A stretch of 64,000 nt of DNA from a phage, in sequence record PZ386972.1; one strand, given 5' to 3'. The notes beneath the pieces were generated by a model. The model was given only the letters and a program-made list of their open reading frames with translations. It ran no database searches and was not told where the DNA came from. Below are positions 7,994 through 60,245 of the stretch, one piece after another (within the stretch, counting starts at the first letter, position 1; each line of letters begins with the position of its first letter). A program made the translations under genes and the position numbers.

Positions 7994-8044
7994 CAATATT
8001 TTACTATAAAGTTCTGTAACATGATCTGAGTCAAAAAATTTTAT

Positions 8045-9040: not shown

Positions 9041-9041
9041 T

Positions 9042-9263: not shown

Positions 9264-9405
9264 GCTAAAAAGCTAGACTGGTAATATACAGGGCCTGGGT
9301 ATGAAAATACTCGGGCCTTTTCTATCAGAAAATTTTATTTGCCTAATGACCGATAATAAAGTAGAATATTCCTTAAATCCTGATAACTATAAAAAGGAAA
9401 GCCAA

Positions 9406-11736
9406 ATGAGCCATCGCATTGAAAAAGTAATTAAACGTGACGGTACTGTAGAAGACTTTGCTCCTGAAAAACTCAATGGTTGGGCAGAGTATGGTTGCAA
9501 AACAGTTGATGTAAGTTGGTCCGCCATTACTATGGCTGCTCAAAAAACGCTACCTAAAGGGGTTGTAGATTCCGACACTCTGATGGACGCATTAATTAAA
9601 GCTGCTGAAAGTCTTATCAAAGATAACCCAGCATACGATGTGCCAGCAAAGGAATTACGTCTTGCGCAAATGCGTAAACGCCTTTATGACTCTTTCGAAC
9701 CGCCTTCTCTACGCTTCTTCCATGACCACATGGTTAGCGTAGGTGCATGGGAAGACATGAGTGCATGGATTACCGATGAGCAATTTGAAGCTCTGAATCA
9801 GGTTATCGACCATGATCGTGACCGTCTTTTTACTAGTGGTGGGCTGAAGCAGTTCTTTGATAAGTATTCCCGTCGTAACATAGCCACTGGTGAAATTTAC
9901 GAAACTCCGCAGTTTGCCTACATGGGTATGGCAATGGCGATGCTATCTCAACCTAACTGGACAATTCTAGATGCAATCGACCTCTACAACGCAATGTCAC
10001 TCCACAAAATCAACGTTCCTACGCCGCCACTGGTTGGTCTGCGCTCTAGTGACCGTGGATTTGCTAGTTGCTGCCTCGTGGATTCCACTGACACGTTGGA
10101 TTCAATCGACACCGCCGAGCACATCGTCTTCAAAATGGTCGCAGCCAGAGCGGGAATCGGGTATCATCTTGAAAGCCGATCAATTGCTGATCCGGTGCGA
10201 AATGGGGCATTCCCGCATTCCGGAAAACTGCCATATTATCGACACATTGACCGCTCAGTAAAGGCCAATACTCAGCAAACTCGTGGTGGTTCTGCTACAG
10301 TATCTTATCCATACTTCGACCCTGAAATCATTCAATTGATGCAGGTTAAGCAACAACGTGCTACAGATGAGAATAAAATCGATAAGATGGATTATTCTCT
10401 GAGCTTTAACAACCTTTTGTTAAAACGTTATCTTAAAAACGAAGATATTACGCTAATGTCATACTTCTATGCTCCAGAAGTTCATGAAGCGTTTTATAGT
10501 GATGACGAGGCTAAATTTGAAGAAATCTACGTGGCAGCGGAGAAACGTGTGGCATCTCTTACAAAGATCGACCACGAAGGAAAAACAGTTCCTGCAGCTC
10601 CTAAAGTCTCTGCAAAAGAAATCCTAGATACTTGGCTACGTATCCGAATGGAAACAGGACGTATGTATGCTCACCACATTGGAGAATCTAATCGTCACGG
10701 TAACTTCCTTGATCCGATCCGTATGACAAACCTTTGTGTTGAAATTACTCAGCCTACACGCCCGTTCCATCACATTACAGAGCTGTACAAGACAAAAGAG
10801 CAGCTTGATCAAATGAAGCCGGAGGATATTGGTGAAGTATCTCTGTGTAACTTAGGTGGTGTTGTACTTGGACGCATGGAATCTCTGGCTGAGTGGGAAA
10901 AAACTTGCTACATCCTTCTGAAATTTGTTGACACAATTATTGAAATTCAGGATTATCCGTTCCCAACTATGGAATATACGGCTAAGAAACGTCGTAATGT
11001 TGGTATTGGCCTGATGAACGCAGCGGGTGCAATGGCAGCAGAAGGTCTGGCTTACGAAGGTATTGAAGCCCGTAACTGGATTCACCGTGAGGCTGAAAAA
11101 CTGTCTTACTTCCTGCATAAAGCCTCTGTACGCCTGGCTAAAGAACAGGGTGCATGTGAGTGGTTTGATCGTACTAAACCATCTAAAGGAATTCTAGTAA
11201 TCGACACGTATAAGAAAACTGTTGATGAACTGGTATCCGTAGGTCTAGAAATGGATTGGGAGTCTCTACGTGCAGATATTCTGAAATATGGTATGCGTAA
11301 CTCTGTTCTGACTGCTCAGATGCCGGGAGAAAGTTCTTCTGTTCTGCTAGGAGTTACTAACTCTATTGAACCGCCTCGTAAGATTGTATCTATCAAGGGT
11401 AGTGCAGTGAATAAAGTAATTGCAATTGCTCCGGGTGCAACCGATTGGGAAACGTTAATGAGCTATAAACTGGCTTATGATGTAGATCGTATCGAGTGGA
11501 TCAAATGGGTAGCAACTATGCAAAAATTCTTCAGTCAGTCTATCAGTACGAATATGTACTATGACTACACCAAGTTTGAGAATGAAATCATTCCTGGCCC
11601 AGTAGTAGTTCGTGATTTCATGACTGCTGTTAAGTATGGGTGGAAAACTTTCTACTATGCAAACTTCAATACCGCAAATGGTGGAGGTGCTGGAGAAGAA
11701 GCAGCCGGTTGTGCATCCGGTGGTTGTACTATTTAA
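9406..11736 (+). CDS. nrdA: ribonucleoside-diphosphate reductase alpha subunit (class Ia)
   Basis: ATP-cone N-terminus, NLCVEI active-site region, C-terminal CASGGC; start at ATG 9406 with AAGGAAAG RBS (track start 9301 probably too early). Confidence 0.9.
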   Translation: MSHRIEKVIKRDGTVEDFAPEKLNGWAEYGCKTVDVSWSAITMAAQKTLPKGVVDSDTLMDALIKAAESLIKDNPAYDVPAKELRLAQMRKRLYDSFEPPSLRFFHDHMVSVGAWEDMSAWITDEQFEALNQVIDHDRDRLFTSGGLKQFFDKYSRRNIATGEIYETPQFAYMGMAMAMLSQPNWTILDAIDLYNAMSLHKINVPTPPLVGLRSSDRGFASCCLVDSTDTLDSIDTAEHIVFKMVAARAGIGYHLESRSIADPVRNGAFPHSGKLPYYRHIDRSVKANTQQTRGGSATVSYPYFDPEIIQLMQVKQQRATDENKIDKMDYSLSFNNLLLKRYLKNEDITLMSYFYAPEVHEAFYSDDEAKFEEIYVAAEKRVASLTKIDHEGKTVPAAPKVSAKEILDTWLRIRMETGRMYAHHIGESNRHGNFLDPIRMTNLCVEITQPTRPFHHITELYKTKEQLDQMKPEDIGEVSLCNLGGVVLGRMESLAEWEKTCYILLKFVDTIIEIQDYPFPTMEYTAKKRRNVGIGLMNAAGAMAAEGLAYEGIEARNWIHREAEKLSYFLHKASVRLAKEQGACEWFDRTKPSKGILVIDTYKKTVDELVSVGLEMDWESLRADILKYGMRNSVLTAQMPGESSSVLLGVTNSIEPPRKIVSIKGSAVNKVIAIAPGATDWETLMSYKLAYDVDRIEWIKWVATMQKFFSQSISTNMYYDYTKFENEIIPGPVVVRDFMTAVKYGWKTFYYANFNTANGGGAGEEAAGCASGGCTI

Positions 11737-48439: not shown

Positions 48440-49171
48440 ATGAGTATTAGTGAGAATTTAAAGACTATTATTAAGCTGGCTAAGAATGCAGACGGCAAAT
48501 GTGTTTCTGAACTAACTCCTGATGAAGCTCATGCAGTAGCATTCTGTTCTGAGTTTCATCCCGCAGCTTATACAGAAGCTGGAATTGTTAAATATAATAA
48601 AGAAGAAAAATTCGTAACTCTATCTCCTTCTTATATTGCAATGAGAAAGATCATCAATTCTGTTGGTGATAAGATTGTAGGGTTCAAGGCAGATTCATAT
48701 CATGTCTTTGCAGATCAGGAACTTCCAGTATTTAAAGAAGGAAATGTTAGAGTTGCACTAGAATTATATCCCGAGGAAAAGTTCATTCCACCTAAACGTT
48801 GTGAATATGATCATCTTCCTAGACTCCAAAGAAAAGATACTGGATTCCCTTATACAAAAGATGAAGTGTTGCTAGGGATTGCTTCTACGATTGCGCAGGT
48901 TCATCTATGTCTCGAAAAGAACCTAGAGATGCCATTAATCTTACAGTCTGCACATAAAGCAATGTTAAATGACTGGGATCAATTCTTTAAGATTATAGGA
49001 GCTGTCGGATTAGCACGTTTACTTCCTGCATTTGAGAACTCTGAAGTATTTGGCGAAGGTTCTTTCGGAACTGTAGATTATGATGCGCTAAAATCCCCAC
49101 ACTCCTATCTTGCAACTTTTCTCTTCATGGTCTCGAAGGGTATCGTTCTCAAATACAAGCGGAAGGAATAA
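48440..49171 (+). CDS. hypothetical protein
   Basis: ORF track. Confidence 0.45.
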   Translation: MSISENLKTIIKLAKNADGKCVSELTPDEAHAVAFCSEFHPAAYTEAGIVKYNKEEKFVTLSPSYIAMRKIINSVGDKIVGFKADSYHVFADQELPVFKEGNVRVALELYPEEKFIPPKRCEYDHLPRLQRKDTGFPYTKDEVLLGIASTIAQVHLCLEKNLEMPLILQSAHKAMLNDWDQFFKIIGAVGLARLLPAFENSEVFGEGSFGTVDYDALKSPHSYLATFLFMVSKGIVLKYKRKE

Positions 49172-49188
49172 ACGTTAACAAAATCTTC

Positions 49189-49218
49189 TTGACAACTCAT
49201 TAAGGTACATGTTATAAT
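49189..49218 (+). promoter_or_regulatory. promoter TTGACA-18-TATAAT directed into the gene-poor repeat locus
   Basis: Consensus hexamers; downstream 1.3 kb has no convincing plus-strand ORF. Confidence 0.5.
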
Positions 49219-49254
49219 AATCTCATAGATTAAAAACAACTTCTGTTTTTAGCT

Positions 49255-49536
49255 CTAGGCAACAAGATTATTGCTATCCCAACTCGAAGAGTACACCAGA
49301 GCCCCTGGCGCTAGGATGTATTCTGCAGCAGTTTTCACGGGATTAGCATACAGATCTTGAACGCCTAGAGCAGCAGACTTACGAGATTGGGGGATCTTAT
49401 ATTTAAAATAAAAGTAAAACTTTTGACCACATAATTTACATTCAAGATGATACACCTGTTGCCGCTCATCTGCTAGGATGGCACAACACTTTCCTAGAAA
49501 CTCCAGAGTTCTCACGAAATAATCACGAGATACCAC
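49255..49536 (-). CDS. small hypothetical protein (possible Zn-binding regulator), doubtful
   Basis: ORF track; CKLCGQKF motif; sits antisense to a promoter-driven region, so may be spurious. Confidence 0.3.
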   Translation of the reverse strand: MVSRDYFVRTLEFLGKCCAILADERQQVYHLECKLCGQKFYFYFKYKIPQSRKSAALGVQDLYANPVKTAAEYILAPGALVYSSSWDSNNLVA

Positions 49537-49544
49537 TCTTTCTA

Positions 49545-49625
49545 GGGCGGTTCTCCTAAGTTTCTAGGAACATATACTAGGCGGTTTAATACAGGGCGGT
49601 TATTGGGAGGGCGGTTATTTCTAGG
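49545..49625 (+). repeat. short direct repeats GGGCGGTT (x4) interleaved with TTTCTAGG(A) (x3)
   Basis: Seen in sequence. Confidence 0.6.
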
Positions 49626-49660
49626 AGACATTTTTTGAAAACACATTTCCAGAAATTACT

Positions 49661-50260
49661 GTCGGATTTGCACATTGTGTTTCTAGAAATTTATGGTCGG
49701 ATTTGCACAATCGCCTAAGTTTTTAGGAACATATAATCTCTTGAAAATGGCAGCATTATTTCGGGCCGAAGGCCCATGATTGCCTGAGTTTTTAGAGCCA
49801 CAAGAATTTTCACTTGTCAAGCTATTTTGCCCCATTTTGCTAATAAAATTTTACTTTATCTGCACTTATCTCAAATTAACCCAAATCTTCTCAACTCTTC
49901 TCCAAAATCCCCGCAAATCAGGTGCTCCGCACCAAACATGCGCCCCTCCCGCAGTTCCCCCAAATTTCTCTCGCTCTCTCAACTTCTCCCCAAACTCACA
50001 CAATCACACACCCTCTAATCGAAGTCACAAAAATCTTGTCGGATTCGCACATCTTAATCCTAGAAAAACCATGTCGGATTTGCACATACCCCACAGGATT
50101 CGAACGCAGTTCGTGATTGCTGGAGTTTTTAGGAAAATTCATTGTCGGATTTGCACACTATAAAAATTTTTCGGGTCGGATTTGCACACTACCAAAAATT
50201 GTCGGATTTGCACATACACGCCCCCGCGTAATCCATGGGGGCAAATGTCGGTTTTGCACA
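49661..50260 (+). repeat. array of 8 direct copies of the 14-mer GTCGGATTTGCACA (two with single substitutions), irregular spacing
   Basis: Copies at about 49661, 49696, 50038, 50073, 50144, 50175, 50201, 50247. Confidence 0.8.
49800..50035 (+). other. G-depleted, C/A-rich low-complexity tract on the plus strand
   Basis: About 235 nt with almost no G on the plus strand. Confidence 0.6.
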
Positions 50261-50285
50261 AAAGCGCAGGGCAATTGCCCTGCCC

Positions 50286-50450
50286 ACCTGAATGCAAATA
50301 AAAATGAGAATCGTTTGCATTTAAAAAGTGAAATGAGAATGATAATGATTCGCATTTAGAAAGTGAAATGATTCTCATTTAGAAAGTGGAATGATTCTCA
50401 TTTAGATAGTGAAATACAAATGATAATGATTCGCATTTAAGAACGGAAGT
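50286..50450 (+). repeat. iteron-like repeat cluster (ATGATTCTCATTTAGAAAGTG and GATAATGATTCGCATTTA units)
   Basis: Three to four tandem or inverted copies of about 20-bp units rich in AATGAGAAT/ATTCTCATT. Confidence 0.7.
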
Positions 50451-50470
50451 GAGAAACACTATTATTTAAG

Positions 50471-50479
50471 TTATCCACA
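50471..50479 (+). promoter_or_regulatory. DnaA box TTATCCACA
   Basis: Exact consensus 9-mer. Confidence 0.6.
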
Positions 50480-50543
50480 GACTTATTAACAGCACGATTT
50501 GACTTGACAGAATCCTAGCCATTTTGAGGCGTTATTAACAGAC

Positions 50544-50552
50544 TTATCCACA
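50544..50552 (+). promoter_or_regulatory. DnaA box TTATCCACA
   Basis: Exact consensus 9-mer; adjacent CTTATCCTA variant. Confidence 0.6.
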
Positions 50553-50945
50553 GCTTATCCTACTGTATAAATATACAGTATTCCTACGCAGTGAATAATT
50601 CTAATATAGCGTTAAAACGTCCTAGATCGCATTCTAACGCGTTTAATTTTGGTGGGGATACTAAAACAAGGGCAAAATTGGAGGAGGCTTGAAAATTAGT
50701 TAGCTCGCTAACGATCACACAAGGCGACACGTAACATCCTAATCATTAGCAGGCTAACCATCGCGGGCGCGGTCAAATAAGAATGATTCTCATTTGAGAA
50801 TTGGGGCACTTCCTGATAGTTGCGCCCCGTGATTATTACAGTAGTGGGCAACCGTTACGCTTTGCCCATTCCCGCCACTCATCTTGATGTCTAGACTTGC
50901 GACGGCGTACTAAAAACCGTTTATACCAGTGATTAAACCATCGTT

Positions 50946-51179
50946 TCATAAATCCTCCTCCGGTAGTCGATGCGTGATTTTTTCCTCCTCCCCATAGGAA
51001 TCCGCCAAATGCTGATAATAACCCTCGTGATCATAAATCACTTTATCATACTCGCCACGCTCGACCGCTTGCCGATTCTCTGGCGTATCGGGCACGTAAA
51101 AAACGTCTACCATCGTAGTAGTTTTGGTCACAATAATTTTATTGCTCATAGTAACTCCTAGTAAATATATTTTTGCCAA
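50946..51179 (-). CDS. hypothetical acidic protein
   Basis: ORF track; GGAGG RBS. Confidence 0.4.
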   Translation of the reverse strand: MAKIYLLGVTMSNKIIVTKTTTMVDVFYVPDTPENRQAVERGEYDKVIYDHEGYYQHLADSYGEEEKITHRLPEEDL

Positions 51180-51249
51180 TAGTGGCGAACGTTATCGCCA
51201 CCAGCGGAATCATTAGCTGCCTCAACATTACCAACGAAAATATATAATT

Positions 51250-51609
51250 TCATTGCGCCACCTTTCGAAACGCTGTTTCAATACTATCAGCCGTGGATTG
51301 AATATACGCGCCTTTCATTATCAGGCGCTCGGTGCATACCTTGCGGAAAATATTAATAAAATCCTCTTCATTTTCTGCAATCAATGCTTCCCCCATGACC
51401 TGAATATCACAAGATGCAAAGGTCAAAAATTGAAATGCTAGTTCACGGGCAACGACCGCATTGATTTTATAATGCGCCTTGCCCTCATAAATATTAATAA
51501 CGCCCTTGTAAGCTGGGGAAAGCTGATTTAAGTAATTTGCTAGTAATGCCGGACGGCAATTAGCAACAAAGCGATTGCCTTCATAAATTATCATTTGCAT
51601 AGCTCCCAA
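51250..51609 (-). CDS. hypothetical protein
   Basis: ORF track. Confidence 0.4.
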   Translation of the reverse strand: MGAMQMIIYEGNRFVANCRPALLANYLNQLSPAYKGVINIYEGKAHYKINAVVARELAFQFLTFASCDIQVMGEALIAENEEDFINIFRKVCTERLIMKGAYIQSTADSIETAFRKVAQ

Positions 51610-51836
51610 ATAGTTCCGCCGATGATCATTAGCTGACTAATAATTATCAGAATAAAACCAATTGAAGGCAGGACGCCCCAATATTGGAACGCCCTTTTAA
51701 TTTGTTGAATCATTTGTTAGCCTCCCAATCAGATAGCCAGATAAAAGCATAAAAATCCCCAATGAAAGGGGATCATTTTTAAATAAGGTGGCGGTAAAAC
51801 CGCCAACCATTGCAAGGATAATAATAATAACGCTTT

Positions 51837-52049
51837 TCATAGTACCCCACGAAAGGCCGCGTAAAAGGTGGCAAAGTGTTTAACCGTTTCAGCGATAACG
51901 TTGCCGCGCTTATCAAATTTCTTTTCTGTAACACGGAAGGCGTTTTTATTCCGCGCTACATATTCGATTTTACAATCAGGACGCTCAAACGTGTTTACAT
52001 CCACCAGCTTAAAGCCTTTCGAACGTGCAAGGGAAACGTTGCGAATCAT
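51837..52049 (-). CDS. hypothetical basic protein
   Basis: ORF track. Confidence 0.35.
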   Translation of the reverse strand: MIRNVSLARSKGFKLVDVNTFERPDCKIEYVARNKNAFRVTEKKFDKRGNVIAETVKHFATFYAAFRGVL

Positions 52050-52248
52050 TTTTTATTCTCCTTTACTAGTCATGCAGCCCAGCAGATAAGAAAATGCAGC
52101 GATACCCGCGCCAATAATAACCGCGTGGACACCGAAAGCTATTGCAAAAAGGGATAAAATAGCGCCCAAGATACCTGCTAGAATAGCTCGAAAAATAACC
52201 ATTTTCATTCTCCTAGTTAGTGGGGCGAAAGTAACGCCCCGTTATTAA

Positions 52249-52557
52249 TTACATTAAAACAATTTTAGCGGCTTGTTTTTTAGTACAGTGTTCCGCTTTC
52301 AGGGTATCCAGCAAAAAGCCCGCCGTTTGCTGATCGATTTTATCGGCATTATATAGTTCCTGAATGGTGTTATAGGTTTTAGCAATGCCGAACTCCTGCA
52401 CCATTTCATGAATGATGACGCGATTAGATACCCAACCTTGCGCGGTGAACAGATGACTAGCAGAAGAATAAGCAACCATTTTAAGCCTCCAAATTTTTGG
52501 GAAAATTTTTAATCCACCGTTTTGGTGTAAAGGCATTATAACAAAAAAGGCCACCAT
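52249..52557 (-). CDS. hypothetical protein (start uncertain, may be an internal ATG)
   Basis: ORF track; hairpin GGGGCG...CGCCCC just downstream. Confidence 0.35.
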   Translation of the reverse strand: MVAFFVIMPLHQNGGLKIFPKIWRLKMVAYSSASHLFTAQGWVSNRVIIHEMVQEFGIAKTYNTIQELYNADKIDQQTAGFLLDTLKAEHCTKKQAAKIVLM

Positions 52558-52584
52558 AAAAGGCGACCTTTACAAAACTTTACA

Positions 52585-53079
52585 TTAAACTACCTGTAAG
52601 GATTCAATATTGAAACATCGTTTCAATTCGTCATGCAAAACAGCATATTCCTCCCATCGGGTACTATCAGGAATATAAACAAGCTGTTTTAATCGGTTTG
52701 CATATATTACCGCTTTGTTATCGACTATCTCGACGCCGCCATATTTAATAATTAATTTCATGACGGAATTAATAGGATCTCCGCCGTTTACATATGTGCC
52801 GGATTTACTTAGCTGATAATGATAAAGGCTTGCATATACGTTTTCATTTTCATACCATTCGCCAGTTTCTTCGTCTTCATAGCCATCGCTACCAAAACGA
52901 GAAGCATTATCAACAGCCATTTCATGAGCAAAAGCGTCCAGATCCGTACCAGCAGGAACAAAATATTCCTCGGTATTCCCTTCCCCGCAATAGCCAGTAT
53001 GACAATCGACCAAAATGATCATATCATGTTTTGCCGTGCTCACTTCCCCTAGCGAGAAGCCGTATTTTTCCTCAGCCAT
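52585..53079 (-). CDS. hypothetical acidic protein
   Basis: ORF track, AGGAGG RBS. Confidence 0.45.
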   Translation of the reverse strand: MAEEKYGFSLGEVSTAKHDMIILVDCHTGYCGEGNTEEYFVPAGTDLDAFAHEMAVDNASRFGSDGYEDEETGEWYENENVYASLYHYQLSKSGTYVNGGDPINSVMKLIIKYGGVEIVDNKAVIYANRLKQLVYIPDSTRWEEYAVLHDELKRCFNIESLQVV

Positions 53080-53144
53080 TTATTAGCCTCCTATTAGTTA
53101 ACAAGGGAATAGTAGAGCGGGGAAATAATCCCCGCTAGTTATTA

Positions 53145-54155
53145 TTACTCGCTTTCGGTGCTAGTGGTAAAAGTAGAAATATCAATACCTTTTACCATTT
53201 CATCAATCATTTCAGCGATGTTAAAACTTTGCACCATTTCTAGCATTGCCGCCTCCATAGCTGCACCTGCCACCGCTTTCGCCTTTTGGTTAGTCGGGGC
53301 GTACTGGTCAACCGCTACACTTAGCAGGTTAGCGATCACTACACGACCAATCGGCGTATCAATATAACCTTTAATCATGAACGGCGCTTTTTTAGCCGCT
53401 ACTTTCGTGATTTGAGTCAGTGCAATTTTACCCGCTTCCAGTTTTGCAGCATTTACAACAGCGGATTTATTGGCGGCAACGATGTTAGCAATCTTGGTCA
53501 TGGTATTTTTTCCTTTGTTTTCAGTAGTTTGAGTGTTAACGCTTTGAGTGTTAGAATTTACATCATGTTTTTCTATATTGTCAATAGGCTGATTTTCATC
53601 TTTCCAGAAAGAAAAACCAGCGCTTTCAATATCTCCGTCATAAATATACGAGTATAGTTCCGAGGGTAACAAAAAATTACCATCGCCATCAAAAGCCATT
53701 ACAGCGGTATATTGAGATCCGTCATCATCCGGCTTATGCCACCCAGCGGGTAAATACTTCCAGATAACATTTAAAAATCCCTCAATACTAGAAAGTCCAT
53801 TTATCAGATCAAGTCCAATAAGCTCAAAACCATTTATATTAAATGATTGACGGCCTGAATTGCTATGATACGCAACAATATTATTGCCCTGCGCAATAAT
53901 AAAATCGGCATCCGGCCCCGCTCCCCTGCCTGTAAAGATATGGCAATCCCGATTATATAAAACTAACGTTGCCCCTTGCTTATATAGTGGTAGAAAACTA
54001 TCAATATCATAAGCGTCATAATCATCAAAAAAGTTTTGATGAATAGTTTCAGCCTTGTTAATAAAATGTTTAATACTGGTTGTCCTGCTACCGTCCAGCA
54101 GGTTGCGCAATGCACCTTTTAAAACGGTGGCATTATCAGGTTTATAAAGCCTCAT
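53145..54155 (-). CDS. hypothetical protein (336 aa), first gene of the minus-strand pre-early block
   Basis: ORF track, GAGGGAGG RBS; terminator-like hairpin GCGGGGA...TCCCCGC downstream. Confidence 0.5.
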   Translation of the reverse strand: MRLYKPDNATVLKGALRNLLDGSRTTSIKHFINKAETIHQNFFDDYDAYDIDSFLPLYKQGATLVLYNRDCHIFTGRGAGPDADFIIAQGNNIVAYHSNSGRQSFNINGFELIGLDLINGLSSIEGFLNVIWKYLPAGWHKPDDDGSQYTAVMAFDGDGNFLLPSELYSYIYDGDIESAGFSFWKDENQPIDNIEKHDVNSNTQSVNTQTTENKGKNTMTKIANIVAANKSAVVNAAKLEAGKIALTQITKVAAKKAPFMIKGYIDTPIGRVVIANLLSVAVDQYAPTNQKAKAVAGAAMEAAMLEMVQSFNIAEMIDEMVKGIDISTFTTSTESE

Positions 54156-54456
54156 TTGTTCGGCCTCCCTCGTTAATCGGTGAGTGAATGATATAGATAT
54201 TTTCTTTCTAGGGGCAAATATTATTTTACCTTTTTACCTTTTTATTTTCCTTGCCTAGCGCCTAGTTTTATGCTAACCGCGCAGCGGTGCAATAAAGAGC
54301 AAAACACGGCGAAGCCACCAGGGCGACGGGTGAAGGCTTTACTTTAATATTACTCCACCGCATTTAGCTCGTTAGAAAGCGTTTTAGGCCGCTTAAAATT
54401 GATTGCAGTTGTTAACACTACCTTTCTACCCTGTATATTTATACAGTAGAATAACC

Positions 54457-54465
54457 TGTGGATAA
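54457..54465 (-). promoter_or_regulatory. DnaA box (TGTGGATAA on plus strand)
   Basis: Exact consensus. Confidence 0.6.
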
Positions 54466-54468
54466 GTC

Positions 54469-54477
54469 TGTGGATAA
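54469..54477 (-). promoter_or_regulatory. DnaA box (TGTGGATAA on plus strand)
   Basis: Exact consensus, 12 nt from the previous box. Confidence 0.6.
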
Positions 54478-54529
54478 GTCTTTATATCGCCGCCTATCGT
54501 GTCAAATCATTTTGTGCTGTTAATAAACT

Positions 54530-54538
54530 TGTGGATAA
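54530..54538 (-). promoter_or_regulatory. DnaA box (TGTGGATAA on plus strand)
   Basis: Exact consensus. Confidence 0.6.
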
Positions 54539-54649
54539 CTTAAATGATAGTGGTTCTCACTTAGGCCGATAGTTTCTTATAGTTATTATTTCTCATTAAT
54601 TTATATGTATATTATATATCATGAAATAGTTAGTTGGCTAATGAGATTT

Positions 54650-54830
54650 TCCGTGATTAATAGTCTGCTAATAGTTTAAGCCGTTACAATCCACCAGCAT
54701 GATTATCATCCTAGCAATTATTAGTCTGCTATCTTTCCGATGCATACTAACAAATAAAAGTCAATTAATTTATTTCATAAAATAAGTAGTTATCCACTGG
54801 AAAATAAAAGTCAAGTGGATAACTAGGAAA
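54650..54830 (+). repeat. AT-rich control region with direct repeats (ATTAnTAGTCTGCTA x2, AATAAAAGTCAA x2) and two convergent DnaA-like boxes
   Basis: TTATCCACT at about 54790 and its inverse AGTGGATAA at about 54814. Confidence 0.55.
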
Positions 54831-55280
54831 ATTTCATTTTTGCTTTTGGGGATAAGTTATCAACAAGGCTAGAATGCGCCTAAAACGCCCTAGAATGCGA
54901 TGAAAGTTTTAGTCATGCCATTGCATTGCCTACCCTCGTTTATCGCTACCACGAGCTTTTTAGGTTTTGTCAAGTAGGGCAAAGCAAATATAAATGAAAA
55001 AATTACTTGCCTATCTGCTATGTTTTGTGGTATTCGCGCGCCCGTTTCTTTTAATTTTAGTGCGCCGCGCCCAGGTCGCCGCACGCCGTCCGGTGGATCG
55101 TGTCTTTACATTTCTTTACAAAATTAAGGTTGCGCCCTTTTCGGGAATCCCCTATTATTTATCACGTAGGGCGGCAATGACGAACTACACGGCGGGAAGT
55201 TTACCGCCGCGCTCTTTAAAAATTGGGTACATCTTAAAGCCTATCGGCGGTAAACTTATACATTATAAGGAATCGACGAT

Positions 55281-55484
55281 ATGAAACAAACTTTATTGAT
55301 CACTGGTAAACCTAGCAAGGCACTGGACAGCAAAACAAAAAATTTGTTGACAGTAGCGCAAAGATCGGTAAAATATCGATTTAAGCAGTACAAGAAAGGT
55401 CGCCAGCAAGGTCTGGAAATGATCTGGCGAAATATTATGATTGACCTGAAAGAAAATCATAAAAAATCTCAAAAAATTGTTTGA
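55281..55484 (+). CDS. small basic protein
   Basis: ORF track. Confidence 0.4.
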   Translation: MKQTLLITGKPSKALDSKTKNLLTVAQRSVKYRFKQYKKGRQQGLEMIWRNIMIDLKENHKKSQKIV

Positions 55485-55711
55485 CAACCTAGCCGATAGG
55501 TTTTAAGATGTACTCAGTTCGATAAGAGCGATAACTTGATAAAATTTGACGGTCGGTGCTTACCATAATGCATCCCGCCCCCTAACTGGGATATAGCGGC
55601 CTACGTGGAGTTCTTTAAATTGAATATACTGGCGAGCGGATTGTTACTTATTACCTGCTACTTTCTAGCAGGTAATGCGGAACAATCCCCAAATAACTAG
55701 GAGTTTATATT

Positions 55712-55963
55712 ATGCAAAACGTTATCACCGCGCCGAAAGTTGGTCAGTCTGTTTTTATTCCTTTCGTTACTAAAACGGATGAACTAACCGGAAAAGCCGA
55801 ACGTATTAAAGGTGCGGCGCTTATGCCGTTTGATACAATCGACGCGGTATATGCTGAAAATGAACGCAGTAACAACGGCAAAACCGTTTTTAGCGTTCGG
55901 GTTAAATCCGGCGATGTTGTAAAGGTTGTTCAACGCAACGAAAAATGGGAAGCTGTTTTATAA
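55712..55963 (+). CDS. hypothetical protein
   Basis: ORF track, AGGAG RBS. Confidence 0.45.
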   Translation: MQNVITAPKVGQSVFIPFVTKTDELTGKAERIKGAALMPFDTIDAVYAENERSNNGKTVFSVRVKSGDVVKVVQRNEKWEAVL

Positions 55964-56061
55964 TTTAGTGTTAACTTTATATACCCCAGTAGTTAGGGGT
56001 ATATAACGATTAACATTATGTTAATCTTATCCCTTAAATTAAACTAATAGGAGTTTTTACC

Positions 56062-56469
56062 ATGACTAACGTTAAAACCGCAAAATTCGCTTGGAATGAA
56101 GAAAACACCCAGAAAGCTGTTTCTATGTACCAGCAGTTAATCAATGAAAACGGTTTAGATTTCGCAAATAGTGACGGGCTGAAAGAGATTGCAAAAGCAG
56201 TAGGCGCGGCTTCTCCCGTGTCAGTTCGCTCAAAATTGACCAGTGCAAAAGCCTACCAAAAAAGCGATAAGCCTCGTAAAGTTGGCGGCGGTAGTTCTGT
56301 ACGCAAGGCGCATTATGTGCGCGTTATCGCTAAACACGCCATTGATTCCGGCATTATCAAAGACGCTGATGATCTGGCAAGTCTGGAAAGTGCAAAACTT
56401 GAAACGCTGGATGCGGTAGCGCAACTGTTAGGCGTTGCTGATGAAGTGAAACAAGCCGCAGGAGAATAA
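56062..56469 (+). CDS. hypothetical protein
   Basis: ORF track, AGGAG RBS. Confidence 0.45.
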   Translation: MTNVKTAKFAWNEENTQKAVSMYQQLINENGLDFANSDGLKEIAKAVGAASPVSVRSKLTSAKAYQKSDKPRKVGGGSSVRKAHYVRVIAKHAIDSGIIKDADDLASLESAKLETLDAVAQLLGVADEVKQAAGE

Positions 56470-56477
56470 TTATATAC

Positions 56478-56508
56478 CTTGCCCCCTTCTAGTGAGGGGG
56501 CAATAATA
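56478..56508 (+). terminator. rho-independent terminator
   Basis: CTTGCCCCC...GGGGGCAA hairpin. Confidence 0.55.
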
Positions 56509-56558
56509 TAACTGTTTAGCGATAGTTATTTTCTTCCCTTAAATCAGGAGTTTTAAAA

Positions 56559-56756
56559 ATGATTTTCTTTCCTACTGAATCCTTAATTCTAGGCTTGTTT
56601 ATTATGGCGGCCTCGTTATTGTTCGCTTATTTTCAAAATGATTTAGATTCGTATTATTTTAAACGTAAATCTAAGTTAGCAAAACGTTTGGGCTTGCTTT
56701 GTTTTATCGCTGCCGTTGCTTGTGGTGTTAGTTCTAGCCTTATGCCTTTAAATTAA
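56559..56756 (+). CDS. small membrane protein (2 TM)
   Basis: ORF track. Confidence 0.4.
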   Translation: MIFFPTESLILGLFIMAASLLFAYFQNDLDSYYFKRKSKLAKRLGLLCFIAAVACGVSSSLMPLN

Positions 56757-56846
56757 TGTTGCAAATTATAACGCCTATTATTCGAGGCGTTATATTTGGC
56801 AATATTGCCGTTATTAATCTAATCCCTTTAATGGAGTTTTATTATT

Positions 56847-58511
56847 ATGATTATTTCCGCAGAAAAACAAACCGTTATCCTGAAAATGGCCGCTGACTTT
56901 AATTTCTATGGTAAACGTCTGCGCGCCACTAAACTGGAGGTCTGCGACGATATATCAAAAGCGGTATATGATACTACAAAACACTCGACCGCTATCTGCG
57001 ACTGGCTGGAAGCAAATAAACCAGTTAAACCGAAAGCGGCGAAAGTAGCAAAAGCCATTAAAAACGATGAGCGTCCAGAAGCGGCGGGGATTGTTTCTAG
57101 CACGGTTGAACAGTGGGAAGTAAAACAAGGCAAACGCTTTATTATTACGTCGATTCAGAATAATACTTTCCCGCATAAAAACTTTTTAGCCTCATTGGAA
57201 AAATTCGCTGAATATATCGGTGCTGATTTGCTTGTTTCTAAGTATATTTATAATAAAAACGGCTTCCAAAATGGCGAGGGTGCGGATGGAATCAAATATG
57301 ATTCCGCGTTCGATAAATATATTTGCAGCAAAAACGTGTTTTTAAATAACCGCCGTTTTGCTTTCATGGCTGAAATTAACGTGTTACCAACCGCAGACTA
57401 TCCGCTTTCTGGATTCGCTGAAACTGCAACGGCGCTTAATCTGGAAGGTCTGGCAATCGGTCACGCTAAAATCACCGCTGAAAGCGTGCCAGCTCTCAAA
57501 GGTGAAGTAGTACGCCGTATGTATTCAACGGGCACGGCAACGCTCAAAAACTACATTCAGCAAAAAGCAGGGCAAAAAGCGGAGGCGCTTCATAACTTTG
57601 GTGCGCTGATTGTCGAGTTCGATGATGATGGTGAGTTTTTTGTGCGCCAGCTTGAAACAATGGATGAAAGCGGGGTGTTTTATGATCTGAATGTTTGCGC
57701 TACTCCCGCAGGATGCTATGAAACATCGGGGCATGTGCTAGGCTTGCAATATGGTGACATACACGCCGAAAAACTGGATGATGATTGTGCCGTTGCGTCA
57801 TGGGCTGGCGAAAATAGCTTGCTTGATATTCTTAAACCAAAATATCAGTTTATCCATGACGTGCATGATTTTACATCCCGCAATCATCATAATCGTGCAT
57901 CCGGTGTATTCCTAGCTAAACAATACGCCGCCGGACGTGATAAAGTTCTGGATGATCTTATCGATACTGGTCGCGTGCTGGAATCGATGGAACGTGATTT
58001 TAGTCAAACGATTATTGTGGAATCTAACCATGATTTAGCGTTATCCCGCTGGTTGGATGATCGTAATGCTAACATTAAAGACGATCCAGCAAACGCGGAA
58101 CTATATCACCGCCTGAATGCCGCGATTTACGGAGCTATTGCAGAAAAAGACGATACTTTCAACGTGCTAGATTATGCATTGCGCAAGGTTGCAGGTTGTG
58201 AGTTTAACGCCATTTTCCTAACAACTGACCAATCATTTAAAATTGCAGGCATCGAGTGTGGCGTACACGGTCACAACGGCATTAACGGCAGCCGTGGCAA
58301 TCCTAAACAATTTAAGAAATTGGGCAAATTGAACACCGGACACACTCACACCGCCAGCATTTACGGCGGGGTATATACCGCTGGCGTTGCTGGTAGTCTC
58401 GATATGGGTTACAACGTTGGCGCGTCAAGCTGGACGCAAACGCATTTAATTACCTATGCAAACGGGCAGCGCACTTTGATCGATTTTAAGAATGGTAAAT
58501 TCTTTGCGTAA
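56847..58511 (+). CDS. A1: A1-like pre-early protein, metallophosphoesterase-fold nuclease
   Basis: 554 aa; calcineurin-like motifs GDIHAE, ESNHD, GHTHT; size and placement beside dmp-like gene match T5 A1 (from memory). Confidence 0.6.
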   Translation: MIISAEKQTVILKMAADFNFYGKRLRATKLEVCDDISKAVYDTTKHSTAICDWLEANKPVKPKAAKVAKAIKNDERPEAAGIVSSTVEQWEVKQGKRFIITSIQNNTFPHKNFLASLEKFAEYIGADLLVSKYIYNKNGFQNGEGADGIKYDSAFDKYICSKNVFLNNRRFAFMAEINVLPTADYPLSGFAETATALNLEGLAIGHAKITAESVPALKGEVVRRMYSTGTATLKNYIQQKAGQKAEALHNFGALIVEFDDDGEFFVRQLETMDESGVFYDLNVCATPAGCYETSGHVLGLQYGDIHAEKLDDDCAVASWAGENSLLDILKPKYQFIHDVHDFTSRNHHNRASGVFLAKQYAAGRDKVLDDLIDTGRVLESMERDFSQTIIVESNHDLALSRWLDDRNANIKDDPANAELYHRLNAAIYGAIAEKDDTFNVLDYALRKVAGCEFNAIFLTTDQSFKIAGIECGVHGHNGINGSRGNPKQFKKLGKLNTGHTHTASIYGGVYTAGVAGSLDMGYNVGASSWTQTHLITYANGQRTLIDFKNGKFFA

Positions 58512-58564
58512 TTAAATTATTCCCTAGCGGCTTGAAATATAGCCGCTATCACAGGAGTCAAAAA

Positions 58565-58822
58565 ATGAAAGTTACATTACCCAAAACATTGGACGAAAAA
58601 GTATTCATTTCACCGGATGAAATGGAATCTGATAAAGTTTACAGCTTCGGGCCTATCCTAGCCGCCAAAACTAATACGGATGGTATTATTTCCGTCGATT
58701 CCCGTGATAACGATATTGTCCCTTTTGATGATGATGGTGCTTTTTATGAGTGGCTAAGCGATAATAATTTACCCGTAAACGGTGAATTAACGCCATACCA
58801 GATGCAGATTATTATCAAATAA
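58565..58822 (+). CDS. hypothetical acidic protein
   Basis: Internal ATG of track ORF 58532..58822 with GGAG RBS. Confidence 0.4.
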   Translation: MKVTLPKTLDEKVFISPDEMESDKVYSFGPILAAKTNTDGIISVDSRDNDIVPFDDDGAFYEWLSDNNLPVNGELTPYQMQIIIK

Positions 58823-58860
58823 ATTAAATCCATTATCAAACTAACTGGAGTTTTATAAAT

Positions 58861-59259
58861 ATGAAAAAGCAAAATATCCCATTCGATCGCGCTCAGTCCT
58901 CAATTGTTCTGGTTTATTCTAATGGCGAACGTTACCACGTCGAGGCGGGGCACGTTATTGATGACCTATTAGATTTCAATGACGCTTTGCAGGTTACTAC
59001 CTTTGCCTATACGCAAGGCAAACTAACCAGCCATATTAAGGCAAAAGGCGTTTATGTTGACACGGTGAAACAAGAAACGGTTATCATCGATGCCGTAAAA
59101 TCCGGCCTAGCCTTTGCAGTTGTCGCGCCTTGCCTCGCTTGCCTTGATGATCAATTGATTAGTGCAAAGGTCTACACATGTGCGGGGATTCGTTCTAGCG
59201 TATCCGGTGAGGATGTTAGTTTTATCGCTGATGCTCTCGCTTTTGGTCTGGCGTTCTAA
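58861..59259 (+). CDS. hypothetical protein (132 aa; possibly A2-like)
   Basis: ORF track; position between A1-like and dmp-like genes. Confidence 0.35.
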   Translation: MKKQNIPFDRAQSSIVLVYSNGERYHVEAGHVIDDLLDFNDALQVTTFAYTQGKLTSHIKAKGVYVDTVKQETVIIDAVKSGLAFAVVAPCLACLDDQLISAKVYTCAGIRSSVSGEDVSFIADALAFGLAF

Positions 59260-59273
59260 TAGTTAATTGAACA

Positions 59274-59306
59274 TAGCCCACTAATAAAATATAATTAGTG
59301 GGCTAG
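59274..59306 (+). terminator. hairpin, possible terminator
   Basis: AGCCCACTAAT...ATTAGTGGGCT inverted repeat, no clear U-run. Confidence 0.35.
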
Positions 59307-59346
59307 ATTGAATTAATCTAATCCCTTAAATGGAGAACGTAACAAA

Positions 59347-60081
59347 ATGAATCAAGTTAAAACGAATATTACCCGTAATTTCCCGCATATTTCCCGCGTC
59401 ATGATTTGGGATTTAGACGGCACTATCGTTAATTCCTTCCATCGTGTAGCGCCTTGCTTTGATAGCGAGGGCAATTTAGATTTAAATAAGTATAAAAATG
59501 AAGCCTGCAAACATCATTTAATAATGCAAGATACTTTATTGCCATTAGTTGAATATATGCGCCAGTGCATGAATGACGCAAATACTTTAAACATTATTTG
59601 CACCGCTCGACTAATGAGCAAGTCGGACTATTATTATTTGCGCAAACAAGGCTTGCGCGGTCGTGGTAATAGTAATATTCGCGTGTTTTCCCGTGATACA
59701 CTGCATAAATATTTTGAGGCTGATAAAGTTAGCGAAATATACCACAGCAAGGACGCAGTATATAAATCTTATTATTTTGAATTATTTAAACAACTATATC
59801 CGAACGCTGATTTTACAATGATTGATGATCATAAAGGCGTGCTATCAGCGGCAGCATCATACGGATTTAAAACGCTGGACGCGCAAGCCGTTAACGATAT
59901 TCTATCAATCGGCGTGACATTAATAGGTGAAACCTTTATTGATGAATCTCTCGACGATGATAATGATTATCAATTCCTAGCTGACCGCTTAAAGCTATGC
60001 TGGGAAGGTATGACCGAGGAAGAACGCGCAGAATATAGTTGCAGCCCGCAACAATATATCGAGAAATTAAAAGTTGCGTAA
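59347..60081 (+). CDS. dmp: HAD-type 5'-deoxyribonucleotidase (dmp-like)
   Basis: 244 aa with WDLDGTI HAD motif; size matches T5 dmp (from memory). Confidence 0.6.
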   Translation: MNQVKTNITRNFPHISRVMIWDLDGTIVNSFHRVAPCFDSEGNLDLNKYKNEACKHHLIMQDTLLPLVEYMRQCMNDANTLNIICTARLMSKSDYYYLRKQGLRGRGNSNIRVFSRDTLHKYFEADKVSEIYHSKDAVYKSYYFELFKQLYPNADFTMIDDHKGVLSAAASYGFKTLDAQAVNDILSIGVTLIGETFIDESLDDDNDYQFLADRLKLCWEGMTEEERAEYSCSPQQYIEKLKVA

Positions 60082-60099
60082 TAATTAAAGTTGAAATAG

Positions 60100-60136
60100 T
60101 TTCATCCTGCAATTAAAATGATTGCAGGATGAAACA
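60100..60136. terminator. bidirectional terminator hairpin between convergent gene blocks
   Basis: GTTTCATCCTGCAAT...ATTGCAGGATGAAAC perfect 15-bp inverted repeat. Confidence 0.65.
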
Positions 60137-60245
60137 ATTACCCTGCTAATAGTAACGGGGGTGGCGGTTAGCAGACTAAGTATTTTCGCCGGAGGCAGTG
60201 GACACACCTCCATGTGTAATCTTATGAAATTTGGCAAAAGTCAGA

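What the first reader, a model, noticed from the sequence alone, without database searches (positions are those of the whole stretch)
50300..54640. Imperfect inverted repeat with DnaA boxes bracketing a 3.9 kb block of minus-strand pre-early genes
Sequence at 50440-50575 and the reverse complement of 54440-54600 align over more than 130 bp, each arm carrying 2-3 DnaA boxes. The arms flank six minus-strand genes (50946..54155) of unknown function. This could be an invertible or recombinogenic segment, a symmetric DNA-injection pause structure, or a two-sided origin.
Basis: seen in the sequence. Interest (0 to 1): 0.75.

Follow-up and report, generated by a model that had tools for sequence, protein, structure and literature searches.

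The report
Known T5 injection-stop inverted repeat pair
The inverted repeat is real, but it is the already described IRC/IRD repeat pair in the terminal repeat of T5-like phages, which brackets a dispensable block of pre-early genes; the new points are that each arm also carries a near-perfect LexA (SOS) box and that the block lies in the opposite orientation in two other phage genera.

Summary
Window 50447-50581 and the reverse complement of 54429-54562 are about 80% identical, far beyond chance, with weaker similarity running inward to 50666 and 54343.

The window is a Tequintavirus (T5-like phage) read in reverse orientation. The two arms are the IRD'-spacer-IRC' and IRC-spacer-IRD repeats annotated in the T5 GenBank record. 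Davison's 2020 preprint analyses them in 25 phages, including the eight DnaA boxes in pairs 3 bp apart. So the finding is already known.

- The injection-pause idea matches the published but untested hypothesis.
- The origin idea has no support.
- A programmed invertible switch is not supported. There is no recombinase, 37 close relatives share one orientation, and the arms never homogenise.

New here:
- Each arm ends in a CTGT-N8-ACAG palindrome matching the LexA consensus at 19/20 (left) and 17/20 (right) positions.
- The module of two double DnaA boxes plus this palindrome keeps fixed spacing in five further phage genera.
- The block is inverted relative to A1/A2 in Pectobacterium phage My1 and Klebsiella Sugarland-type phages.
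- A published T5 deletion apparently spanning the A2-side arm is viable, so pairing of the arms seems dispensable.

How the arms work remains untested.

The parts
50447..50581 (+). Left arm core. It lies next to the injection stop signal (iss) and equals T5 IRD'-spacer-IRC' read in reverse.
   Evidence: 92% identical to T5 AY587007 9325-9468, which that record annotates as inverted repeats D' and C'. 79.5% identical to the reverse complement of the right arm.
54429..54562 (-). Right arm core. It lies on the A2 side, in the divergent-promoter region, and equals T5 IRC-spacer-IRD.
   Evidence: 81% identical to T5 AY587007 6022-6156. The alignment with T5 has no gaps in the core.
50471..50491 (+). 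Double DnaA box: TTATCCACA gac TTATTAACA
   Evidence: The 3-bp spacing is the arrangement that E. coli DnaA prefers in vivo (PMC11317965).
50532..50552 (+). Double DnaA box: TTATTAACA gac TTATCCACA
54457..54477 (-). Double DnaA box: TTATCCACA gac TTATCCACA
54518..54538 (-). Double DnaA box: TTATCCACA aag TTATTAACA
50561..50580 (.). LexA/SOS-box-like palindrome TACTGTATAAATATACAGTA (T5 'palindrome D') at the inner end of the left arm
   Evidence: Matches the LexA consensus at 19 of 20 positions. Scores 25.5 bits on a matrix built from recalled E. coli operators, whose best score is 23.6. The pattern CTGT-N8-ACAG occurs 3 times in the window, two of them in the arms.
54429..54448 (.). LexA/SOS-box-like palindrome CCCTGTATATTTATACAGTA at the inner end of the right arm
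   Evidence: Scores 22.4 bits. The next best site in the 64-kb window scores 13.5.
50448..50460 (.). Small palindrome AGTG-N5-CACT at the outer end of the left arm; binding partner unknown
   Evidence: Conserved in both arms across 32 genomes.
54549..54561 (.). Small palindrome AGTG-N5-CACT at the outer end of the right arm
50586..50666 (+). Weaker inward extension of the left arm, including the motif CGCATTCTAACGCG
   Evidence: A third copy of the motif lies at 54883-54901 (pair I10).
54343..54425 (-). Weaker inward extension of the right arm
54188..54217 (-). Predicted sigma-70 promoter of the block (TTGCCC-18-TATCAT with an A-rich upstream tract), the counterpart of T5 promoter P11. It lies inside the arms.
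   Evidence: The T5 promoter upstream of gene 011 was validated by primer extension (PMC7472727). The equivalence is inferred from position.
50946..54155 (-). Block of at least 8 accessory pre-early ORFs. The first (53145..54155) is DUF7566, the T5.011 homologue. 51837..52049 is the gp015-type nickase that cuts abasic sites.
   Evidence: In T5 these genes are dispensable.

Best explanation
This is the conserved inverted-repeat pair of the T5-type terminal repeat, on the DNA that enters the cell in the first step of transfer. The left arm is IRD'-spacer-IRC', at the inner edge of the non-coding injection-stop region. The right arm is IRC-spacer-IRD, in the divergent-promoter region on the A2 side.

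Each arm is a composite protein-docking module. It holds two tandem 'double DnaA boxes' 40 bp apart, followed 10 bp further on by a near-consensus LexA-type palindrome. The arms bracket a variable, dispensable cassette of accessory pre-early genes that carries its own promoter.

Shown: the identity with the T5 repeats, the anatomy, the conservation, the absence of homogenisation, and the absence of inversion among close relatives.

Inferred: host DnaA, as dimers on each double box, and probably LexA assemble on these modules as soon as the first-step DNA enters. The arm next to the stop region is the ancestral, functionally important copy. It marks or holds the DNA end at the stop point and is where the A1/A2-dependent restart acts. 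The A2-side arm is an old, diverged duplicate that gives a second docking site and is not required. It is neither a programmed invertible switch nor a replication origin, although rare recombination between the arms has flipped the cassette at least once in the family's history.
For: Identity: the region is 90-93% identical to many Tequintavirus genomes, where it falls in the annotated left terminal repeat. The arms align without gaps to T5 IRD'/IRC' and IRC/IRD. Davison 2020 describes the 131-bp repeats, the eight DnaA boxes in pairs 3 bp apart and the constant spacer in 25 phages.

Binding-site quality: the window holds four double DnaA boxes, all in the arms, against 0.02 expected. In vivo, E. 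coli DnaA binds almost only to such doubles spaced 2-3 bp apart. The LexA-like boxes score 25.5 and 22.4 bits, against 13.5 for the next best site in 64 kb.

Family-wide module: DnaA boxes sit at about -92 to -80, -31 and -19 relative to CTGT-N8-ACAG. This holds in T5, Klebsiella IME260, two Proteus phages, Vibrio Dax and Vibrio valsw3, where nucleotide similarity is otherwise gone. In Vibrio 70E37-3 the boxes lie nearby but at other offsets and orientations. A non-T5-like control locus has no such site.

The left arm is better conserved than the right: 90.9% against 83.8% between genomes.

The second arm appears dispensable: the T5 mutant deleted from hegG to gene 017 is viable with small plaques. 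In NC_005859 those genes run from 5411 to 9157, which spans the arm.

Not a switch.
Against: No experiment shows DnaA or LexA bound to T5 DNA. Papers from 2023 and 2026 state that functional studies of these sites are lacking and that second-step transfer is still not understood.

Proteins that bind incoming DNA would more naturally pull it in than stop it (my inference).

T5 plates well on recA laboratory strains (my own knowledge), so LexA cleavage cannot be required for restart.

The palindrome could instead be the operator of the phage's own dimeric DNA-binding protein A2.

The LexA box is about 225 bp upstream of the predicted block promoter, so it is not a classical operator position.

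That the hegG-017 deletion is one contiguous gap is inferred from the text; the figure was not seen.
Confidence: 0.6

Rival explanations
1. The arms are mirror-symmetric transcription boundaries or regulators. DnaA and LexA bound at both ends of the cassette would block RNA polymerase from reading out of, or into, the accessory operon. They could also repress a promoter in the A2-side arm. This would insulate toxic cargo genes and keep transcription off the half-injected DNA end.
For: The arms sit exactly at the two ends of the operon, with their boxes in mirror orientation. DnaA/DnaA-box complexes are known to block transcribing RNA polymerase (Schaefer and Messer 1988, listed). The right arm has a promoter-like TTAACA-16-TATATT whose -10 element lies inside the LexA box and points towards A2. 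In Proteus and Vibrio relatives the second LexA-like box also lies in the divergent intergenic region. Several cassette genes are toxic.
Against: The experimentally known pre-early promoters (P-H22, P-D/E20, P11) lie outside the arms. The left arm has no matching -35 element (read from the sequence). Promoter-like sites in the region are not enriched over shuffles: 24 found against 19.3 expected. Deleting the A2-side arm together with the cassette says nothing about an insulating role.
Confidence: 0.2
2. The palindrome, and perhaps the whole arm, is the recognition site of the phage's own A2 protein, alone or as the A1-A2 complex. The resemblance to the LexA box would then be coincidental or mimicry. 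A2 binding there would trigger second-step transfer.
For: A2 is an essential dimeric double-stranded-DNA-binding protein with no known target, and it is proposed to associate with viral DNA. A2 is found in all the genera that keep the palindrome. A perfect 16-bp palindrome suits a dimer.
Against: A2 is only about 38-43% identical in Proteus and Vibrio phages. Yet the palindrome stays on the LexA consensus, including the flanking TA and the A/T-rich core, and some variants are identical to recalled host operators. Host LexA specificity is constant across these hosts, whereas a co-evolving phage protein and site would be expected to drift. The neighbouring boxes are host-type DnaA boxes.
Confidence: 0.2
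3. A programmed invertible segment: recombination between the arms flips the 3.9-kb cassette within a phage population, switching which genes are expressed.
For: The cassette is bracketed by inverted repeats. It is found in the opposite orientation in My1 and in the Sugarland-type phage IME260, with the conserved DUF7566 gene as marker; Sugarland shows the same reversed DNA match.
Against: None of the 8 ORFs or their neighbours is a recombinase or invertase. The arms are only about 75-80% identical. Within-genome identity (74.9%) equals between-genome left-right identity (74.5%), and no arm of 64 has the other arm type as nearest neighbour. All 37 close loci that hold the block, and 124 records, are colinear. 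The cassette carries its own promoter, so flipping would not switch expression.
Confidence: 0.03
4. A DnaA-dependent replication origin, or a pair of origins, in the terminal repeat.
For: There are four high-quality double DnaA boxes and A/T-rich flanks. Davison notes the resemblance to oriC.
Against: T5 origins were mapped near the genome centre, and the replication genes are not on the first-step DNA. There are no oriC-type 13-mer arrays: 46 loose matches against 52 expected, and only one near an arm. GC skew changes only where the coding strand changes. The second arm is dispensable.
Confidence: 0.04

Closest known systems
T5 IRC-spacer-IRD / IRD'-spacer-IRC' repeats (Repeat Regions 2 and 3 of the left terminal repeat). 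Annotated by Wang et al. 2005 in AY587007 and analysed by Davison in 2015 and 2020.
   Same: Same position, same order of motifs and same core length without gaps. Eight DnaA-type boxes in pairs 3 bp apart. 92% and 81% identity to the T5 arms.
   Different: Nothing essential. This phage has all eight boxes where T5 has seven. It lacks the HNH gene (hegG) insertion next to the A2-side arm. Its arms are 3.85 kb apart, against 3.18 kb in T5.
E. coli 'double DnaA boxes' (DARS2, purH, polA, mioC; Stringer, Fitzgerald and Wade 2024)
   Same: Two 9-mers in tandem, 3 bp apart, typically one perfect and one with 7/9 matches.
   Different: Here two doubles sit 40 bp apart, each set is coupled to a LexA-type palindrome, and the whole unit is duplicated in inverted orientation on phage DNA. 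Binding has not been tested.
LexA operators (SOS boxes) of Gammaproteobacteria, consensus TACTGTATATATATACAGTA
   Same: CTGT-N8-ACAG with an A/T core. The left-arm site matches the consensus at 19/20 positions and outscores the recalled chromosomal operators.
   Different: The sites do not overlap a demonstrated promoter. They lie in a strictly lytic phage that destroys host DNA. No LexA link to T5-like phages was found in the searchable literature.
Phage DNA-inversion systems (Mu G/Gin, P1 C/Cin, Salmonella Hin)
   Same: A kilobase-scale segment flanked by inverted repeats.
   Different: Those systems have short, nearly identical crossover sites, an adjacent serine recombinase and an enhancer, and both orientations coexist in a population. 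None of this is seen here.
Origins with DnaA-box clusters (oriC; P1 oriR, which has boxes at both ends)
   Same: Clustered, oriented DnaA boxes next to A/T-rich DNA.
   Different: No unwinding-element repeats, no iterons with an initiator gene, and T5 origins have been mapped elsewhere. The comparison with P1 oriR rests on my own knowledge.

Membership tests
[quoted passage not shown] | Lies in the terminal repeat of a T5-like phage, with one arm at the inner edge of the non-coding injection-stop region and the other between the two divergent pre-early operons | tested here: met
   A2 (56062..56469) and A1 (56847..58511) lie to the right. The direct-repeat arrays of the stop region (49660-50452) lie to the left.
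[quoted passage not shown] | Sequence homology of each arm to the corresponding T5 arm, with the same internal spacer length | tested here: met
   92% and 81% identity. The four-way alignment has no gaps in the core.
[quoted passage not shown] | Eight DnaA or DnaA-like boxes, two pairs per arm, with the members of a pair 3 bp apart | tested here: met
[quoted passage not shown] | Acts in cis as (part of) the injection stop signal | not testable with these tools
   This is only a hypothesis in the literature.
Programmed DNA-inversion switch | A site-specific recombinase encoded in or next to the segment | tested here: not met
   Pfam and PHROG scans of 8 inner and 6 flanking ORFs found none.
Programmed DNA-inversion switch | Both orientations found among close relatives or within a population | tested here: not met
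   37 close loci that hold the block are all colinear, and 124 records cover at least 80% of the region on one strand. Read-level data were not available.
Programmed DNA-inversion switch | Nearly identical crossover sites, or homogenised arms | tested here: not met
   Arms are 75-80% identical with no concerted evolution.
DnaA-dependent replication origin | Cluster of DnaA boxes | tested here: met
DnaA-dependent replication origin | Adjacent unwinding element with repeated A/T-rich 13-mers | tested here: not met
   Only the oriC-type 13-mer was tested.
DnaA-dependent replication origin | Replication starts there | not testable with these tools
   The literature places T5 origins near the genome centre. 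GC skew is uninformative.
LexA (SOS) operator | CTGT-N8-ACAG palindrome scoring in the range of proven operators | tested here: met
   The scoring matrix was built from operator sequences recalled from memory.
LexA (SOS) operator | Overlaps the promoter it represses | tested here: inconclusive
   The right arm has a predicted TTAACA-16-TATATT overlapping the box. The left arm has none. The known promoters lie elsewhere.
LexA (SOS) operator | LexA binds it | not testable with these tools
   Needs gel-shift, footprinting or ChIP experiments.

The most novel reading that the evidence does not exclude
The conserved cis element at the T5 injection-stop boundary is not just a set of DnaA boxes. It is a fixed-geometry composite site for two host proteins, DnaA (two double boxes) and LexA (one near-consensus SOS box). 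It has been kept for the whole history of the Demerecviridae, from Escherichia to Vibrio phages. LexA would then be an unrecognised host factor in the parking, protection or regulation of first-step-transfer DNA in a strictly lytic phage.
Probability: 0.35. Interest if true: 0.6.

Novelty: already known. Interest (0 to 1): 0.3.

Why it matters
The two-step DNA injection of T5 has lacked a mechanism for more than 50 years, and this repeat pair is the leading candidate for the cis-acting stop signal. The finding as submitted adds nothing to what is annotated and published.

Three points from this analysis sharpen the experiments that could settle the question:
- The module that matters is probably the single arm next to the stop region, because the other arm is apparently deleted in a viable mutant.
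- Its DnaA sites have exactly the 'double box' form now known to be needed for binding in vivo.
- It contains a LexA-type operator that the literature I could search does not mention. This makes lexA and dnaA host mutants and point mutations in the boxes direct tests.

The inverted cassette in two genera also shows that inverted repeats can reshuffle the pre-early gene cargo.

Tried and rejected
1. Fur boxes in the neighbouring AATGATTCTCATT repeats: 9 loose matches in the window against 5.8 expected, so not enriched. Dropped.

2. A search for the classical T5 promoter P-N25 in the T5 terminal repeat found nothing, so it is not a pre-early promoter of this region.

3. An Rfam scan of 49000-56200 gave only two chance-level hits. 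No known RNA lies there.

4. I tested whether the inner flanks of the arms moved with the inverted cassette in IME260. The scores (23-29) are at noise level, partly because the inner flanks are themselves inverted copies of each other. Uninformative.

5. The conserved TTGACA in the middle of each arm (50504-50509; 54500-54505 on the minus strand) has no -10 partner at 16-18 bp in any arm (read). It is not a promoter as far as the sequence shows.

6. An RNA duplex or cruciform between the arms is unlikely. The block's promoter lies inside the right arm, so that arm is not in the transcript, and 3.9 kb is too far for a cruciform. I did not fold it.

7. A model in which LexA cleavage after host DNA breakdown releases the stop is rejected, because T5 grows on recA strains (my own knowledge).

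8. Davison's 2015 review, Wang 2005 and Heusterspreute 1987 could not be read. I therefore cannot exclude that one of them mentions the SOS-box resemblance.

9. The Aeromonas phage Akh-2 locus was cut by the record end, and Shewanella phage 1/4 is not T5-like. The latter was used only as a negative control.


Full report

Yes. The repeat finder reports an inverted pair at 50418-50578 and 54431-54591: 161 nt, 75% complementary without gaps, 3852 nt apart. MAFFT and BLAST place the core at 50447-50581 against the reverse complement of 54429-54562, with 79.5% identity over 132 nt.

A local alignment of the two 401-nt neighbourhoods scores 93. The maximum was 28 among 394 random pairs of window segments and 20 among 300 shuffles. 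The alignment continues more weakly inward, to about 50666 and 54343.

The perfect DnaA box TTATCCACA occurs six times in 64 kb, and five of those lie in the arms.

At least eight minus-strand ORFs between 50946 and 54155 match PHROG families. One of them (51837..52049) belongs to the family of the T5 nickase that cuts abasic sites left by Ung. The first (53145..54155, 336 aa) is Pfam DUF7566.

**2. What is it?**

The region is 90-93% identical to many Tequintavirus genomes, and in annotated records it falls in the left terminal repeat. The window is in reverse orientation relative to the standard T5 map. A2 is 56062..56469 (+), A1 is 56847..58511 (+) and the dmp-position ORF is 59347..60081 (+).

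The T5 record AY587007 annotates 'inverted repeat C' (6022-6060), 'D' (6112-6152), 'D'' (9332-9372) and 'C'' (9424-9462), plus 'palindrome D' (9330-9349). The window's left arm aligns to D'/C' at 92% and the right arm to C/D at 81%, with no gaps in the core.

Davison's 2020 preprint (10.1101/866236) describes these same 131-bp repeats in 25 T5-like phages. It reports eight DnaA or DnaA-like boxes 'always in pairs separated by 3 bp', a constant spacer, and a variable distance between the arms. It proposes that both repeats belong to the injection stop signal by binding membrane-associated DnaA.

Later papers repeat this and state that experimental tests are lacking. The finding is therefore already known.

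**3. Anatomy in this window**

Each arm, read from outside to inside, contains:
- A small palindrome, AGTG-N5-CACT (50448-50460; 54549-54561).
- A double DnaA box (50471-50491; 54518-54538).
- A 40-bp stretch with a conserved TTGACA (50504-50509; 54500-54505 on the minus strand).
- A second double DnaA box (50532-50552; 54457-54477).
- Ten bp further, a 20-bp palindrome (50561-50580 TACTGTATAAATATACAGTA; 54429-54448 CCCTGTATATTTATACAGTA).

The four double boxes have 3-bp spacing, at least 7/9 matches in each half and at least 16/18 in total. They are the only ones in the window; first-order Markov simulations give a mean of 0.02. This matters because ChIP-seq showed that E. coli DnaA binds in vivo almost exclusively to such pairs, spaced 2 or 3 bp apart and often one perfect plus one 7/9 box (PMC11317965).

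The block's own promoter is predicted at 54188-54217 on the minus strand, inside the arms. It corresponds by position to T5 promoter P11, which was validated by primer extension.

**4. A LexA-type box in each arm**

The inner palindrome fits CTGT-N8-ACAG. That pattern occurs three times in the window, against 0.73 expected. Two of the three are in the arms, and both have an all-A/T core.

The left-arm copy matches the LexA consensus TACTGTATATATATACAGTA at 19 of 20 positions. I built a position weight matrix from 25 E. coli operators recalled from the literature, so small errors are possible. With it:
- The left-arm box scores 25.5 bits and the right-arm box 22.4 bits.
- The recalled operators range from 12.8 to 23.6 bits, with a median of 19.9.
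- The next best site in the window scores 13.5.

Davison's preprint contains no occurrence of 'LexA' or 'SOS'. Four literature searches found no paper that links LexA with T5-like phages or the stop signal. The older primary papers could not be read, so novelty is probable rather than certain.

**5. Conservation**

In 32 distinct genomes, 30 left arms and 27 right arms keep an exact CTGT-N8-ACAG.

The composite module also survives where nucleotide similarity is lost. Relative to the CTGT, DnaA boxes sit at about -92 to -80, -31 and -19 in:
- T5
- Klebsiella phage IME260
- Proteus phages VTCCBPA139 and phage 2
- Vibrio phage Dax
- Vibrio phage valsw3

Vibrio phage 70E37-3 has the boxes nearby but at other offsets and orientations. 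In Pectobacterium My1 the left-arm palindrome is a CTGG variant scoring 24.9 bits.

Each of these loci has one to three sites scoring at least 18.9 bits. A non-T5-like control locus (Shewanella phage 1/4) peaks at 12.0.

The Proteus phages keep a second LexA-like box in the divergent intergenic region without DnaA boxes. Dax keeps DnaA boxes there without a LexA box. The arm next to the stop region therefore looks ancestral to the family, and the second arm looks like a later duplicate, fully developed in the enterobacterial genera.

**6. Is it an invertible or recombinogenic segment?**

Not on short time scales.
- In the 37 of 40 related loci that hold both the flanks and the inner block, the block is colinear with its flanks. 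In 124 phage records a single same-strand match covers at least 80% of the 6-kb query.
- Corresponding arms are much more alike between genomes (left-left mean 90.9%, right-right 83.8%) than the two arms of one genome (74.9%). That figure equals the all-against-all left-right value (74.5%).
- None of 64 arm sequences has the other arm type as its nearest neighbour. There is no gene conversion between the arms.
- No recombinase is encoded in or near the block.

On the scale of the family, however, the block has flipped. Homologues of the DUF7566 gene are:
- Divergent from A2/A1 in the window, in T5 (88% identity) and in Proteus phage VTCCBPA139 (E = 2e-25).
- Co-oriented with A2/A1 in IME260 (34% identity, E = 4e-44) and My1 (52% over 110 residues, E = 4e-38), and still between the two arms. 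Sugarland shows the same reversed DNA match.

[quoted passage not shown] The conserved gene shows that it is an inversion of a homologous cassette, as recombination between the arms would produce.

The distance between the arms ranges from about 1.6 to 4.1 kb. This is consistent with a cargo cassette.

**7. Is it an origin?**

No support.
- GC skew is negative across the minus-strand block and changes sign only where the coding strand changes.
- oriC-type 13-mers are not enriched: 46 loose matches against 52 expected, with a single hit (54196) lying inside the block next to the right arm.
- The literature summarised places T5 origins near the genome centre and notes that the replication genes are not on the first-step DNA.

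**8. Experimental constraint from the literature**

Annor et al. 2026 (bioRxiv 10.64898/2026.04.02.716235) built a T5 mutant, ΔLΔR, in which 'genes hegG to 017' are deleted. It keeps only genes 009, hdi, A2 and A1, and it is viable with smaller plaques.

In NC_005859, hegG begins at 5411 and gene 017 ends at 9157. The annotated stop-signal feature runs from 9140 to 10149. A contiguous deletion would remove IRC-spacer-IRD and the whole cassette while leaving IRD'-spacer-IRC' in place.

The A2-side arm, and any pairing or looping between the arms, therefore seems not to be needed for productive infection. That the deletion is contiguous is my inference from the text.

**9. Most likely mechanism**

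Shown:
- The arms are conserved non-coding modules made of sites of the type that DnaA binds in vivo, plus a LexA-consensus palindrome.
- They bracket a dispensable cassette that has its own promoter.
- The arm next to the stop region is ancient and better conserved.

Inferred:
- Pre-existing host proteins load on these modules as the first 8% of the genome enters. This fits a stop that needs no protein synthesis.
- The arm next to the stop region marks or holds the DNA at the stop point and is the substrate for the A1/A2-dependent restart.
- The second arm gives a redundant docking site. This is consistent with the minor 5.8-kb first-step band of Rhoades 1979, as cited.

I give 0.6 to this whole statement. 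Identity is close to certain; the mechanistic half is about even odds.

The rivals are transcriptional insulation or regulation by DnaA and LexA (0.2), recognition of the palindrome by A2 (0.2), a programmed switch (0.03) and an origin (0.04).

A tempting model, in which A1-driven host DNA breakdown induces LexA cleavage and releases the stop, is contradicted by the good growth of T5 on recA strains (my own knowledge).

**10. Verdict**

The structure is real and biologically meaningful, but it is annotated and published, so novelty is 'already known' and interest is low (0.3).

The side observations are leads worth a bench test rather than a new kind of system. They are the family-wide DnaA-plus-LexA-type composite module, the evolutionary inversion of the cassette, and the lack of homogenisation between the arms.

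Noticed in passing
window 50561-50580 and 54429-54448; also L041 4471/8171, L043 6727/10700, L044 631, L045 7758/10855/11532, L046 3659/7610, L048 6373/9911, L049 7430: A near-consensus LexA (SOS) box, equal to T5 'palindrome D', sits at the inner end of each arm. Its distance from the double DnaA boxes is fixed in most of the Demerecviridae genera examined. The accessible literature does not mention it.
   Followed up: yes
L041 5562-6527 (+), L046 4996-5958 (+), compared with window 53145-54155 (-): The cassette between the arms is inverted relative to A1/A2 in Klebsiella phage IME260 (with the same reversed DNA match in Sugarland) and in Pectobacterium phage My1. The marker is the conserved DUF7566 (T5.011) gene. 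This was previously described as a replacement, not an inversion.
   Followed up: yes
window 49660-50263 and 50299-50452 (plus 50782-50804): Eight copies of TGTCGGATTTGCACA and six copies of a 23-nt unit AATGATTCTCATTTAGAAAGTGA lie just outside the left arm. They correspond to the DRD and DRC/DRE repeats of the T5 injection-stop region. A Fur-box resemblance was checked and is not significant.
   Followed up: partly
window 54787-54825 and 54847-54865: A 15-nt hairpin-type palindrome, TAGTTATCCACTGGA/TCAAGTGGATAACTA, carries DnaA-like boxes (TTATCCACT). Two more one-mismatch boxes lie outside the right arm. This is probably the counterpart of T5 Repeat Region 1.
   Followed up: no
window 50448-50460 and 54549-54561: A small palindrome AGTG-N5-CACT at the outer end of both arms is conserved in 32 genomes. 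I could not name a binding protein for it.
   Followed up: no
window 50504-50509 and 54500-54505: A TTGACA hexamer is conserved at the centre of the 40-bp stretch between the double boxes in both arms and in T5. It has no -10 partner at promoter spacing.
   Followed up: partly
arms of 32 genomes; T5 L002 6135 and 9330: The asymmetric centre of the palindrome (ATAAATAT or ATATTTAT) is flipped in 10 of the 30 left arms that keep the box. In T5 the two arms carry the same centre on the same strand instead of mirror images. This hints at strand switching or exchange within the palindrome.
   Followed up: no
L002 6417-7154 compared with window 53145-54155 and L051 2996-4006: Gene 011 is an intact 336-aa ORF in this window and in NC_005859 but is truncated to 245 aa in AY587007. 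This is one of the known discrepancies between the T5 sequences.
   Followed up: partly
window about 49770 and about 60180: Projecting the repeat annotation of phage MM-1 onto the window places the terminal repeat at about 49770 to 60180. ORFs continue beyond 60231, which suggests that the source record holds a single collapsed or permuted copy of the repeat.
   Followed up: no
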